This document shows, in pieces, positions 12,001-15,000 of a stretch of DNA of 64,000 bases (its first letter is position 1; each line of letters starts with the position of its first letter). Origin of the DNA: Trypanosoma brucei (Eukaryota). A program made the position numbers. The stretch covers positions 4,576,001-4,640,000 of the forward strand of contig CH464491.1 of NCBI GenBank assembly GCA_000002445.1. The letters run 5' to 3'.

Positions 12001-15000
12001 TTGGTATGTTCGATGTAGTAAAACAGACAAAAAACCTAAAGGCAAGCTAGAAAATGTTAGCGGTAGTGTCATTCGGGTTGTGGTTACGATTTGTAATTTT
12101 TGTTTTAATTTTTTAATGATGCAGCTGCTCTTTCTCGATGAATACTCTAACTATTTTTCCTCCAGCAGACATCTTTGCTTAAATTCTCTTGATATTCATT
12201 TTTACTACGCCGCCGTTACGCTTTTGTTCATTTTGATTTTGTGAATCTCAGTTCTGCACTTTCCGCTGCTCGCGGTTTCAAATTCTTTTTTCGTTGGGAC
12301 AAAAGCTGGAGGGTGGCCTCAGCGGCTGCATGCGGTTTTTTTACAGTGGCGTGTGGCAGTTTCGCTGCAACAATCTGTCTGCTTTTAAGGCGGGGTAGAA
12401 GCAAGCGAACGATATTCTGCAGCAACACATGAGGCTAATTTGGCAGAAAACTTTAGCGACGCGTGCAGACAGCAAGCGTTACACAACAAACGTGACCTGC
12501 AAAGCAAACGACTGCAAATGGGAAGGGGACAGCGAAACCACTGCAAACCCAATGATGGAGAAACGCAGACAATTCAAGGAACAGATGGAACTCTATCAAC
12601 AGAAGACCCTAATTGTAGCGAGTATACAGACCCAGATAAATGTGCCAACGCGCCACGCAAAGCTAAGGAGTGAAAGAAATCTGTTTGTGATTGGATTGAT
12701 TTCATGGATGGACAGGAAAATTTTTGAACCAAAATTCCGTGATTGAAGTTTCCTTGCAAGTAGAAAATTGGCTCCGATGTCTGCTTCTTTTCTGCGTTTG
12801 GTGTCATTTTAAAGATTTTTACTCAATTTAATCAAATTTATTAAGTTTATGAAATTTTCTATTTTGAAAAAATTTGCTAGGATTAGCTAACAATTGATAT
12901 ATTTAAATACTTTTCGATAAAATATGAAAATTTAGAAAAATGTGAATGATAATAGCCTATGATTGCGATGTAAAATTGTAATAGGATATGAAATGTGAGT
13001 TCTTTTCTGATTTTGGTGAAATAGTAATAGACTGTTTTGAGTGTGTATATACTAATATTATAATAAATGTCTTGACGAACACATGGACTACAAAAATAGA
13101 AGAATTTAAAATCAGAGAGGGTACAATGGAAGTGAATGAGTGAAGGAAAGTTCAAGGAATATATTTTATACGGAGAAACAGAAAGACAGAGAGAGTGTGG
13201 GGAAGAAATTAACGCAATAACAGACGCCGAAATAAAGAAGGGACTCTCATATGCCAACGAATGTGGAGGCAGTAATTATGAATAAACAGAGCACAGCGAC
13301 CGAGAAAATGCAACTCCTACGTTTTATACAGTGATAGCAAAGGAGAAGCTGCTGGCGAAAGTGAGAGGGTGGGAAACGCCGTGAAAAAAGTCCATATATG
13401 AGTCAGTTGTGGCTATTTACGAATTTGAGGGAATAAACAGCGATACCTTTCTAATCCCGTACCTGTATTACAGGAAAACAGTAATACATTTCAATGGGTG
13501 GTTAATTGACGCAAGGATTGTGACTGAGAAAACAAAAGATGACAATTAACAAAGCAAAATTGAAGAAGAAAAAGAAACTTTCAGGACTTTAATTGACAAA
13601 TCTTAGACGGCGTCGGCAACAGCTGAAAGCAGGCATAAACAAAAGTTTGTGCATGCTCTGGAATAATAAAAGCCTCATCTTCTCATTACAGCGGGATGTG
13701 ACAACAGCTATATAGCAGTAAATAGAACAAATTAGAAACCACAAGATAAGAATCTTAACTCGTAGAAAGTAGTCTGGTGTTTTATACAGCTATAAGAATG
13801 AATTTGGGAACAAATAAAAAATATTCAAAAGGTAATGGACAGGAAGAAAAGTCGGTTAAACAACAGTTATGTCAAGTTCAATAGAAATAGAGAACGAAAA
13901 TAACAGATGAGACTTCTTACTTTTTTGCTTTGTCCTGATTAGTTTGCTCGAAGTAGCCAATTCTATCTTTTATTTACACAGGAAATACACGCAATAAAAC
14001 AAGGCAAACGATTTTAAATGTCCAGATCAGAGACAGTTGCCCTCAGTATTTTACAAGTAGAGTCTACGTTACTGTTTTTAAAAAGCAATTGAAGCTGGTG
14101 GAGCACAGTCAGGCGGTTTAAGCGGCTATAAATGGATAGGGTCTGCTCAGTAGAAAAAAAATTTAGGAATGTGAAAAAACGCCCCGTCCTCAGAGCTTTC
14201 ACCCCCGATAAAACAGAAAGTCATTACTTACAGCAGTTTTTATGGGCACTAAATAAAATTGGAAGAACAAAAGTGGTGAATAAAAAGGCAACTCCAATGC
14301 AAAAATTAACTGCTATACGGGTTTGGCAAAACGGTTTCTCAAAAATGTTCAAAGTCATGCGTACGAGTGAAGCGTCAGTGTTATGTAGCCGCTGATAAAT
14401 TCATCCACAAAACAGGAATTGGACTACAATAGAAGAACACAGCAAACATTAATGAAAGATGCTTTAGATATAGAATGGTATTTATTAAATTTGAAAATCG
14501 AGGCTATTTGCCTTAAGTGGGTGCCGTTTTCCGTTACTAAAGGAAGATGCTGGCCTCTTGAGTTCTTCTTTTTTGTTACATACGTGTTTCTTAAAAGTAA
14601 CAGACATCATGAAGCTATAACCACACGTGCTAGCACGTGACTTACAGAACAAGCAGAAAAATCGGCTCCATCGAGGCAACCCTAATATCGAGAAGGGGCA
14701 GAAAACAACATACCTACGTCTCCACCGGCAACCAATTGGCACAAACTCAACTTCTCTTGGTATCCTTCACTCTAGGGACACGAGCTAGCACGAAGACACG
14801 AATTCATGTCACTGCCCTTTATATGGACGATAGCCGTACTAGCCACCGCAACCGGAACATTAGCGACCATTCATGAACACACAAAACAGGTTGCTACAGC
14901 TTGCGCCGCTGCCAGACAGTTTGGAGAAGCTTTAACGGTCATCAAATCAAAGGCAACGGACCTAATCACAAGCCAGGAAAAGTTACAAAAGGACTACACA

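What the first reader, a model, noticed from the sequence alone, without database searches (positions are those of the whole stretch)
12228..12807. Near-identical inverted repeat about 42 kb apart (12228-12807 versus 54328-54911)
ORF translations on opposite strands are identical except for 1-2 residues (MNLSSALSAARGFKFFFRWDKSWRVASAAACGFF...; MAENFSDACR(Q/E)QALHNKRDLQSKRLQMGRGQRNHCKPNDGE...). This implies at least 98% nucleotide identity over about 600 bp in inverted orientation. Such identity in non-functional sequence points to recent gene conversion or duplication. It also gives a substrate for inversion of the intervening 42 kb, which contains the strand-switch region.
Basis: seen in the sequence. 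Interest (0 to 1): 0.55.

Follow-up and report, generated by a model that had tools for sequence, protein, structure and literature searches.

The report
Duplicated VSG gene-tail fragments, recently homogenised
The inverted repeat is real, but it is two leftover tail-end fragments of trypanosome surface-coat (VSG) genes on opposite arms of a silent VSG array, whose central ~450 bp was made nearly identical by gene conversion, which is ordinary for this kind of genome region.

Summary
Identity is 98.7% over 446 bp (12243-12688 vs 54896-54451). It falls abruptly to about 72% on the 3' side and 81-85% on the 5' side.

The window is a silent subtelomeric VSG array of a Trypanosoma brucei-group parasite. 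VSG cassettes lie on the + strand to about 44 kb and on the - strand from about 50 kb.

Each copy is an orphan VSG 3' fragment. It holds a C-terminal domain (Pfam Trypan_glycop_C, E=2e-16), a GPI-signal tail, a 3'UTR and a degenerate 16-mer. It lacks an N-terminal domain. It sits between a complete upstream VSG's 3'UTR and the next cassette's 70-bp repeat, so the inverted orientation simply follows array polarity.

Two more diverged paralogues of the same roughly 1-kb module occur in the window, at 40-70% identity. The 99% A/B core is therefore a segmental gene-conversion tract laid over old paralogues.

The tract is long enough to act as a recombination substrate, but I found no evidence of inversion. 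A T. equiperdum contig is collinear through copy A's inner junction.

This is a known kind of feature and of low interest.

The parts
12079..13013 (+). Copy A: the whole homologous module. It runs from a degenerate TTAGGG-like patch through a T-rich tract, a non-VSG segment, a frameshifted VSG C-terminal domain and a 3'UTR.
   Evidence: blastn and local alignment against the reverse complement of 54112-55204.
12243..12688 (+). Copy A: near-identical core, the inferred gene-conversion tract (440/446 identical to B).
   Evidence: The best change-point segment is 12213-12687.
12414..12812 (+). Copy A: VSG C-terminal-domain coding remnant with GPI-signal tail. It carries a frameshift near 12533-12539, an in-frame TGA at 12671, further frame breaks, and a terminal TAA at 12810-12812.
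   Evidence: tblastn of VSG proteins, three-frame translation, stop coordinate.
12895..12910 (+). Copy A: degenerate VSG 3'UTR 16-mer TGATATATTTAAATAC (2 mismatches to TGATATATTTTAACAC).
13012..13087 (+). 70-bp-repeat element of the next cassette, which bounds copy A on its 3' side.
   Evidence: Repeat family D1 and sequence.
54112..55204 (-). Copy B: the whole homologous module. It carries two tandem ~130-bp T-rich units where A has one.
54451..54896 (-). Copy B: near-identical core, the counterpart of 12243-12688.
54328..54750 (-). Copy B: open frame of 140 codons ending ...NNKLALMDAAFTSLVLF*. It covers the VSG C-terminal domain and GPI signal. Upstream it shares the same frameshift as A.
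   Evidence: Translation. Pfam Trypan_glycop_C: E=1.3e-12 for the open part, and E=2e-16 (60.7 bits, profile 5-104/104) after frameshift correction. It matches only the C-termini of ~500-aa proteins.
54230..54245 (-). Copy B: degenerate 16-mer TGACATATTTTAAAAC (2 mismatches).
53901..54066 (-). 70-bp-repeat elements of the next - strand cassette, which bound copy B on its 3' side.
   Evidence: Repeat family D5 and the 70-bp core at 53981-54018.
12056..12095 (+). Degenerate TTAGGG-like patch at the 5' edge of module A.
   Evidence: Sequence and alignment with B, S1 and S3.
55185..55270 (-). TTAGGG-like patch at the 5' edge of module B.
7950..8810 (+). S1: a diverged paralogue of the same post-VSG module. 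It runs from a TTAGGG-like patch to a CTD/3'UTR remnant at 8619-8690 and is followed by a 70-bp repeat at 8808.
48258..49450 (-). S3: a diverged paralogue of the same module, with a CTD remnant at 48445-48840.
56161..57738 (-). Intact B-type VSG immediately upstream of module B. Its own 16-mer is at 56107-56122, followed by (TTAGGG)n.
   Evidence: Pfam VSG_B and Trypan_glycop_C, 16-mer, telomere repeats.
10257..11791 (+). Frameshifted VSG pseudogene immediately upstream of module A. Only its C-terminal end, 11651-11782, is verified as VSG.
   Evidence: tblastn 61.5% to the C-terminus of VSG 42575-44086. The + strand ORFs are broken. Pfam is silent on the N-terminal pieces.

Best explanation
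The window is a silent subtelomeric VSG array of a Trypanozoon (Trypanosoma brucei group) genome. Cassettes on the + strand converge on cassettes on the - strand. Copies A and B are two members of a small family of roughly 1-kb 'post-VSG modules'. Each module lies between the 3'UTR of a VSG (intact upstream of B; upstream of A a pseudogene verified as VSG only at its C-terminal end) and the 70-bp repeat of the next cassette. Each consists of a TTAGGG-like patch, a T-rich tract, about 170 nt of non-VSG sequence, and the last ~130 codons of a VSG (C-terminal domain plus GPI signal) with its 3'UTR and 16-mer. In other words they are orphan VSG 3' gene fragments. They are inverted relative to each other only because they sit on opposite arms of the array. 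A and B are old paralogues, about 70-85% identical outside the core. A ~450-bp central tract was later homogenised by ectopic segmental gene conversion. That conversion was either directly between the two loci or from a common donor, and it happened before the lineages of this genome and T. equiperdum OVI separated. The fragments have no function of their own. They are by-products of, and substrates for, the homologous recombination that shapes the VSG archive. What is shown: the anatomy, the VSG identity, the family membership and the identity step. What is inferred: conversion as the cause, and its timing.
For: Array identity: Pfam VSG_B, Trypan_glycop and Trypan_glycop_C hit the large ORFs. 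The 70-bp repeat cores and the 16-mer TGATATATTTTAACAC lie on + up to 44.15 kb and on - from 50.3 kb. AT skew flips accordingly. VSG 28836-30347 is identical to T. b. brucei TREU927 XP_829762.1 and to a T. equiperdum protein. Fragment identity: the frameshift-corrected translation hits Trypan_glycop_C at E=2e-16, 60.7 bits against a cutoff of 21.4, covering profile positions 5-104 of 104. VSG proteins align only from about 12414/54725 onward and only through their last ~130 residues. The B frame matches the C-termini of ~500-aa proteins at <=49-66% identity. No N-terminal domain or 70-bp repeat precedes either copy. Conversion: identity is 98.7% in 12243-12688, versus 72% on the 3' side and 81-85% on the 5' side. 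LLR is 60.8 against a permutation maximum of 11.0, and Fisher p=1e-25. The diverged 3' flank is the GPI-signal and 3'UTR region. From my own knowledge, not tested here, that is normally the best-conserved part of a VSG gene, so relaxed or strengthened constraint would not produce this pattern. Family background: the four modules align end to end. Pairwise identity is 40-66% in the core region for every pair except A/B (99%). In the 3'UTR, A/B (69%) is no closer than B/S3 (74%). Timing: the orthologous T. equiperdum copy A carries the A-type base at all core A/B differences, and orthologous divergence between the two genomes is 0.3-0.9%. Literature: the archive holds VSG fragments and evolves mainly by gene conversion (PMC1868767). 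Segmental conversion and 3' donation are frequent (PMC3708902; PMC12137147).
Against: I could not search any T. brucei genome at the DNA level, so I cannot say whether further near-identical copies, possible third-party donors, exist elsewhere. The direction of conversion is unknown. The flanks could instead have been overwritten by other donors after a recent duplication. That is still conversion but reverses the history. The ~170 nt of core upstream of the VSG-derived part (12243-12413) has no identified origin. The timing argument rests on one short-read-based scaffold that is itself disturbed at this repeat (N10 gap, B-type 5' flank).
Confidence: 0.8

Rival explanations
1. There was a recent inverted duplication of the whole ~0.9-kb module. 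One copy's flanks, especially the GPI-signal and 3'UTR end, were then overwritten by conversion from other VSG 3' ends (3' donation-like events).
For: The same identity step would result. VSG 3' ends are known to be exchanged often (PMC3708902). In the CTD-end segment A/B is still the closest pair, at 74% versus about 59% for the other pairs.
Against: It needs at least two extra events, because both flanks are diverged (5' at 81-85%, 3' at 72%). No better donor for either flank is present in the window. The 3'UTR identity of A/B equals the family background, as expected for old paralogues.
Confidence: 0.12
2. Both cores were copied independently from a third locus, for example a telomeric or expressed VSG 3' region, rather than one from the other.
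For: It cannot be excluded, because only this window and one partial contig from another genome could be examined. Array loci can receive sequence by conversion (PMC1868767).
Against: No protein with this C-terminal domain above 66% identity exists in the 1.84-billion representative library, and none in the word-indexed search. Both copies share the same frameshift, so the donor would itself have been a pseudogene.
Confidence: 0.1
3. The core is kept identical by purifying selection because it is a functional element, such as a non-coding RNA, a regulatory or boundary element, or a small protein.
For: The 5' non-VSG part of the module is recognisably conserved among all four modules.
Against: There is no Rfam family hit. 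The core folds no better than shuffled sequence (z=+1.19). The other two paralogues are only 40-64% identical in the same region. Copy A carries stops and frameshifts, and there is no start codon or signal peptide in B's frame.
Confidence: 0.03
4. The pair is the recombination site of an actively invertible 42-kb segment, with the inverted repeats mediating flip-flop of the strand-switch region.
For: The inverted geometry is right, and the 446 bp at 98.7% with a 191-nt perfect run exceeds the ~200-bp plateau for T. brucei homologous recombination. Inverted blocks between the subtelomeres of different isolates are reported (PMC6784898).
Against: The T. equiperdum contig is collinear with the window across A's inner junction and on to about 44.3 kb. 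Both copies keep distinct flank haplotypes. No site-specific recombinase context exists in this organism or region. A non-crossover conversion explains the data without inversion.
Confidence: 0.04
5. It is an assembly artefact, with one copy wrongly duplicated or misplaced.
For: The repeat does disturb a short-read assembly. The T. equiperdum scaffold has an N10 gap and a B-type 5' flank joined to an A-type core.
Against: The two copies differ at 6 core positions, have different flanks and a 130-bp indel, and are embedded in unrelated cassettes. Both flank types are seen independently in the T. equiperdum data.
Confidence: 0.02

Closest known systems
VSG gene fragments (C-terminal fragments) of the T. 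brucei silent archive, as catalogued in VSGdb and the TREU927 genome annotation
   Same: It has a truncated VSG with a C-terminal domain, GPI signal, 3'UTR and 16-mer. It lies in a subtelomeric array and is degenerate, with frameshifts and stops. The archive is described as intact genes, atypical genes, pseudogenes and VSG fragments (PMC1868767).
   Different: Here the fragment is part of a larger recurrent module preceded by TTAGGG-like repeats and a conserved non-VSG segment. I did not find that arrangement described in the papers searched.
Segmental gene conversion and 3' donation among VSG genes (mosaic VSG formation)
   Same: A short, sharply bounded tract of near-identity lies between otherwise diverged VSG-family sequences. 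Tract boundaries fall inside or near the C-terminal-domain region (PMC3708902; PMC12137147).
   Different: The described events put silent-array sequence into the transcribed expression-site VSG during infection. Here both partners are silent array loci, so this is germline-like archive evolution, and the tract includes about 170 nt of non-VSG sequence.
Inverted repeats flanking inversions, including subtelomeric inverted blocks between T. brucei isolates
   Same: There are two inverted homologous arms about 42 kb apart that bracket a strand-switch region. Inverted blocks between TREU927 and Lister 427 subtelomeres are shown in PMC6784898.
   Different: No evidence of alternative orientation was found here. 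The arms are short and only one arrangement is seen.

Membership tests
VSG C-terminal domain (Pfam PF10659 Trypan_glycop_C) | Sequence match to the family profile above the curated threshold | tested here: met
   60.7 bits against a cutoff of 21.4, E=2e-16, profile 5-104/104 for the frameshift-corrected B translation. 48.4 bits for the uncorrected open part.
VSG C-terminal domain (Pfam PF10659 Trypan_glycop_C) | Cysteine-rich subdomains (4 or 8 Cys) followed by a hydrophobic GPI-anchor signal | tested here: met
   B reads ...TC..DC..(fs)C... CSEYTDPDKC...SVC...KCC... then NNKLALMDAAFTSLVLF*. The first Cys of subdomain 1 is not identifiable. Copy A has the same layout, broken by stops.
Complete VSG gene / functional VSG cassette | An N-terminal domain (A or B type) with signal peptide upstream of the C-terminal domain | tested here: not met
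   VSG proteins align only through their last ~130 residues. Pfam finds nothing in the three frames of 12243-12430. The fragment is therefore not a gene.
Complete VSG gene / functional VSG cassette | A 70-bp repeat upstream, and a 3'UTR with the conserved 16-mer downstream | tested here: inconclusive
   The 16-mer is present but has 2 mismatches in each copy. No 70-bp repeat lies upstream of either fragment. The sequence directly upstream is the preceding VSG's 3'UTR and TTAGGG-like/T-rich DNA.
Gene-conversion tract between paralogues | A contiguous block of near-identity with abrupt boundaries inside a longer, more diverged homologous region | tested here: met
   98.7% in the core versus 72-85% in the flanks. 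LLR 60.8 versus <=11.0 in permutations. Family background is 40-70%.
Gene-conversion tract between paralogues | Discordant phylogeny between tract and flanks using outgroup copies | tested here: inconclusive
   With S1 and S3 as outgroups, A/B is the closest pair in the core (99%) and CTD-end (74% vs 59%) but not in the 3'UTR (69% vs B/S3 74%).
Invertible DNA segment bounded by inverted repeats | Both orientations of the intervening segment observed within or between populations | tested here: not met
   Only one other assembly was reachable, and it is collinear with the window through copy A's inner junction to about 44.3 kb. The B side could not be fetched.
Invertible DNA segment bounded by inverted repeats | Arms long and similar enough for homologous recombination | tested here: met
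   446 bp at 98.7% with perfect runs of 191 and 161 nt, against a ~200-bp plateau in T. brucei (PMC1904282).
Structured non-coding RNA | Match to a known RNA family, or folding energy well below shuffled controls | tested here: not met
   No Rfam hit at gathering thresholds in the whole window. z=+1.19 for the core.

The most novel reading that the evidence does not exclude
The A/B pair and its two diverged relatives (S1, S3) are relics of a distinct 'post-VSG module': telomere-like repeats, then a conserved non-VSG segment, then a truncated VSG tail. On this reading the module marks places where telomere-proximal VSGs, with a stub of telomere repeat, were captured into the array next to the broken 3' end of a resident VSG. 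The modules continue to exchange sequence across the convergent strand switch, and the A/B tract could occasionally resolve as a crossover that flips the 42-kb block. If true, the array carries a readable record of how silent VSG arrays grow from telomeres and rearrange.
Probability: 0.12. Interest if true: 0.45.

Novelty: already known. Interest (0 to 1): 0.15.

Why it matters
It matters little beyond bookkeeping. It is a clean local example of archive evolution by ectopic gene conversion between silent VSG-array loci on opposite strands, and it shows that orphan VSG 3' fragments take part in such exchange. In practice, the 161-191-nt perfect runs are enough to mislead short-read assemblies. 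The T. equiperdum scaffold appears chimeric exactly here. Anyone scoring structural variation in these subtelomeres should treat this pair as a potential false-join or inversion breakpoint. The associated interstitial telomere repeats and the recurrent post-VSG module may deserve a genome-wide look, but that is a separate question.

Tried and rejected
1. Searching for the fragment's C-terminal domain in the 5.8-billion protein index gave no hit. The exhaustive HMMER search gave only distant VSG C-termini, at <=66% identity over 50 residues and 49% over ~110. So no full-length parent or third donor was identified.
2. I tried to fetch the copy-B locus from another genome through exact-protein look-ups of neighbouring ORFs. 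VSG 56161-57861 (long and short starts) and the ingi ORF were tried as contig look-ups, and VSG 50670-51881 was checked in the exact-sequence index. None was on record. The only identical homologue sits on a 1.8-kb contig. Inversion could therefore be tested only at the A side.
3. The 5' non-VSG part of the core might have been a VSG 5'UTR or signal-peptide remnant, implying an internal deletion. A sensitive blastn finds it only in the four modules and never upstream of VSG ORFs, and Pfam is silent. Rejected.
4. A large palindrome or mirror duplication around the strand switch was considered. The other inverted pairs in the window have different midpoints (33.5, 41-44 and 53.6 kb), so there is no common axis. 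Rejected.
5. A structured RNA or Rfam family was rejected.
6. Marcello & Barry 2007 (Genome Research), the primary archive analysis, is not held in the library. I used the VSGdb paper instead.
7. The bacterial, viral, plasmid and E. coli DNA collections were not searched, because the sequence is trypanosomal.
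Full report
OBSERVATION

The window's strongest repeat pair is an inverted one. The arms are 12163-12720 and 54419-54976, 558 nt, 96% complementary without gaps, and 41,698 nt apart. With gaps, blastn extends this to 12163-12922 vs 54976-54220 (89.3% of 763 columns). A further offset segment, 12079-12185 vs 55204-55096, matches at 81%.

A base-by-base alignment shows a central block that is almost identical, with decaying flanks. Identity by interval:
- 12243-12688 is 440/446 identical (98.7%), with perfect runs of 191, 161 and 65 nt.
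- 12163-12242 is 85% identical.
- 12689-12922 is 72% identical.

So the repeat is real and non-random, but '>=98% over about 600 bp' should read 'about 99% over about 450 bp'.

The step in identity is highly significant. The best low-divergence segment is 12213-12687, with a log-likelihood ratio of 60.8. The maximum in 200 permutations of alignment columns was 11.0. Fisher p is 1e-25 for core versus flanks.

WHAT THE WINDOW IS

The large ORFs hit Pfam VSG_B, Trypan_glycop (A-type) and Trypan_glycop_C. The window is punctuated by 70-bp-repeat cores (GTGTTGTGAGTGTGTGTATATACGAATATTATAATAAG-like) and by the VSG 3'UTR 16-mer TGATATATTTTAACAC. All of these are on the + strand up to 44.15 kb and on the - strand from 50.3 kb. 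The AT skew changes sign to match.

One VSG (28836-30347) is identical in protein sequence to T. b. brucei TREU927 XP_829762.1/EAN80650.1 and to a T. equiperdum protein. A T. equiperdum contig (CZPT02001055.1, assembly GCA_001457755.2) is collinear with window positions ~7.8-44.3 kb at 99.1-99.7% identity.

The window is therefore a silent subtelomeric VSG array of a Trypanozoon genome, probably TREU927 chromosome 11 or a close relative (inferred). It has a convergent strand switch between about 44.2 and 50.3 kb.

WHAT THE REPEAT IS

Translating copy B gives an open frame, 54750-54328. It ends ...CKPNDGETQTIQGTDGTLSTEDPNCSEYTDPDKCANAPRKPKEGKKSVCTWTDFIDGQGKPEPKCCDYISIVNNKLALMDAAFTSLVLF*. This is a VSG C-terminal domain with a GPI-anchor signal.
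- With one frameshift corrected, the translation hits Pfam Trypan_glycop_C at E=2e-16. The score is 60.7 bits against a cutoff of 21.4, and it covers profile positions 5-104 of 104.
- Copy A has the same frameshift, plus a TGA at 12671 and further frame breaks.
- tblastn with 40 VSG proteins shows that VSG-derived coding similarity begins at about 12414 (A) and 54725 (B). It corresponds only to the last ~130 residues of ~500-residue VSGs.
- The preceding ~170 nt of the core (12243-12413) matches no VSG and no Pfam family.
- Each copy ends with a 16-mer carrying two mismatches: 12895-12910 on + and 54230-54245 on -.
- Each copy is followed at once by the 70-bp repeat of the next cassette: 13012-13087 on +, and 54066-53901 on -.
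- Upstream of each copy is another VSG with its own 3'UTR. For A this is a frameshifted pseudogene ending at 11791, of which only the C-terminal end is verified as VSG. For B it is an intact B-type VSG at 56161-57738.
- The two upstream VSGs and the two downstream cassettes are unrelated to each other. Homology is therefore confined to the ~1-kb module.

So both copies are orphan VSG 3' fragments. This is a category the TREU927 archive annotation already recognises, alongside intact genes, atypical genes and pseudogenes (PMC1868767). Their inverted orientation follows from each having the polarity of its own arm of the array.

A FAMILY OF MODULES, AND WHY THE CORE IS A CONVERSION TRACT

A scan with VSG C-terminal domains finds four orphan CTD remnants in the window: 8619-8690 (+), 12426-12875 (+, copy A), 48445-48840 (-) and 54262-54719 (-, copy B).

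The four spacers that contain them align collinearly. They are S1 at 7950-8810, A, S3 at 49450-48258, and B. Each spacer starts with a TTAGGG-like patch. Each continues through a T-rich tract bearing a GATGCAGCGGCT-like motif and a conserved non-VSG segment. Each ends with the CTD remnant and 3'UTR.

The 5' non-VSG part occurs only in these four modules.

Pairwise identities:
- In the core region every pair is 40-66% identical, except A/B at 99%.
- In the CTD-end A/B is 74% against about 59% for the others. A and B are therefore sister paralogues.
- In the 3'UTR A/B (69%) is no closer than B/S3 (74%).

The diverged 3' flank is the GPI-signal and 3'UTR region. From my own knowledge, not tested here, that is normally the most conserved part of VSG genes. 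Differential constraint therefore cannot explain the pattern. CTDs of different VSGs are only about 40% identical (PMC1868767), and the closest protein relatives of this CTD are <=49-66% identical.

The simplest history has two steps. An old duplication of the module came first. An ectopic segmental gene conversion of about 450-475 bp followed.

At all core positions where A and B differ, the T. equiperdum orthologue of A carries the A-type base. The A/B core divergence (0.7-1.3%) is of the same order as orthologous divergence between the two genomes (0.3-0.9%). The event therefore predates their separation (inferred).

B has two tandem ~130-bp T-rich units where A has one. A's single unit matches B's first unit in its 5' part and B's second unit in its 3' part. 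That indicates an unequal-recombination deletion in A or a duplication in B.

RIVALS

- Selection on a functional element. This is disfavoured. There is no Rfam hit in the window. The core folds no better than shuffles (z=+1.19). Copy A has stops. The other paralogues are diverged.
- Assembly artefact. This is disfavoured. The copies differ at six core sites, in both flanks and by an indel. Both flank types are seen independently in T. equiperdum.
- Recent duplication with later overwriting of the flanks, or conversion of both copies from a third donor. Neither can be excluded without whole-genome DNA searches. Both are variants of the same mechanism.
- An actively invertible 42-kb segment. 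This is possible in principle. T. brucei homologous recombination rises linearly from 50 to 200 bp and then plateaus (PMC1904282), and inverted blocks between isolates' subtelomeres are documented (PMC6784898). But the only testable junction, A's inner side in T. equiperdum, has the same arrangement as the window.

COMPARISON WITH KNOWN BIOLOGY, AND NOVELTY

Several relevant facts are established:
- The archive contains VSG fragments (PMC1868767).
- The archive evolves largely by gene conversion (PMC1868767).
- Segmental conversion and 3' donation are frequent in expressed VSGs (PMC3708902).
- Trypanosomes search efficiently for homologous VSG templates, including array pseudogenes (PMC12137147).

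This finding is one instance of that known behaviour between two silent loci. The kind of feature is already known, and I score interest at 0.15.

What I did not find described in the searched literature is the recurrent 'post-VSG module' with interstitial telomere-like repeats. That is recorded as a side observation and as the basis of the novel-case reading.

LIMITS

No trypanosome genome could be searched at the DNA level with the available collections. Copy-number, donor identity and inversion polymorphism therefore remain untested. The decisive computations are listed in the next-steps field.

Noticed in passing
window 55850-55990 (-), 50188-50199 (-), 49418-49449 (-); degenerate patches at 55185-55270 (-), 12056-12095 (+), 7950-7979 (+), 44247-44258 (+): Interstitial telomere repeats lie in the sense orientation just downstream of the 3'UTRs of silent array VSGs. 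The tract after VSG 56161-57738 is about 140 nt of near-perfect (TTAGGG)n. This suggests these cassettes derive from telomere-proximal VSGs. No paper in the library combined 'interstitial telomer*' with VSG.
   Followed up: partly
window 7950-8810 (+), 12040-13015 (+), 48258-49450 (-), 54095-55250 (-): A four-member family of ~1-kb 'post-VSG modules': TTAGGG-like patch, T-rich tract with a GATGCAGCGGCT motif, a conserved non-VSG segment, and a truncated VSG C-terminal domain with 3'UTR. Members are 40-70% identical to each other apart from the A/B core. The other cassettes have only ~170-200 nt between the 16-mer and the next 70-bp repeat.
   Followed up: partly
window 44303-44806 (+) and 62346-64000 (-): A ~500-bp RIME-like retroposon sits at the inner end of the + array. 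It starts CCCTGGCGATGCCGGCC... and ends in poly(A). The 3' part of an ingi element lies on the - strand. ORF 62628-63926 has C2H2 zinc fingers and hits 'Tbingi protein' at E=2e-37. Their shared 3' ends form a second inverted repeat, 44553-44812 vs 62603-62346, at 91%.
   Followed up: partly
L002 4436-4640 (T. equiperdum CZPT02001055.1), corresponding to window 12205-12245: The T. equiperdum scaffold has an N10 gap inside copy A. After the gap come ~140 nt identical to the window's copy-B 5' flank, which then run into an A-type core and A-type 3' flank. The likely cause is a short-read assembly chimera through the 161-nt perfect run. The alternative is a longer conversion tract in that lineage.
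   Followed up: partly
window 46269-50440 vs 52201-56218 (-): Two neighbouring - strand cassettes are spaced ~5.78 kb apart and share an upstream region (72-84%), VSG 3' ends (84-90%) and downstream spacer architecture. The same VSG-upstream region also occurs at 35323-36195 (+), at 75-84%.
   Followed up: no
window 54977-55170 (-): Copy B carries a tandem duplication of a ~130-bp T-rich unit that is single in copy A. A's unit looks like a recombinant of B's two units. This explains the offset blast match 12079-12185 vs 55204-55096.
   Followed up: yes
window 44810-48250: The central part of the strand-switch region has no ORF above ~135 aa and no VSG-like coding similarity. It still contains a VSG-upstream-type segment (46269-47227, -) without a recognisable VSG after it. 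This may be a cassette truncated at the switch.
   Followed up: no
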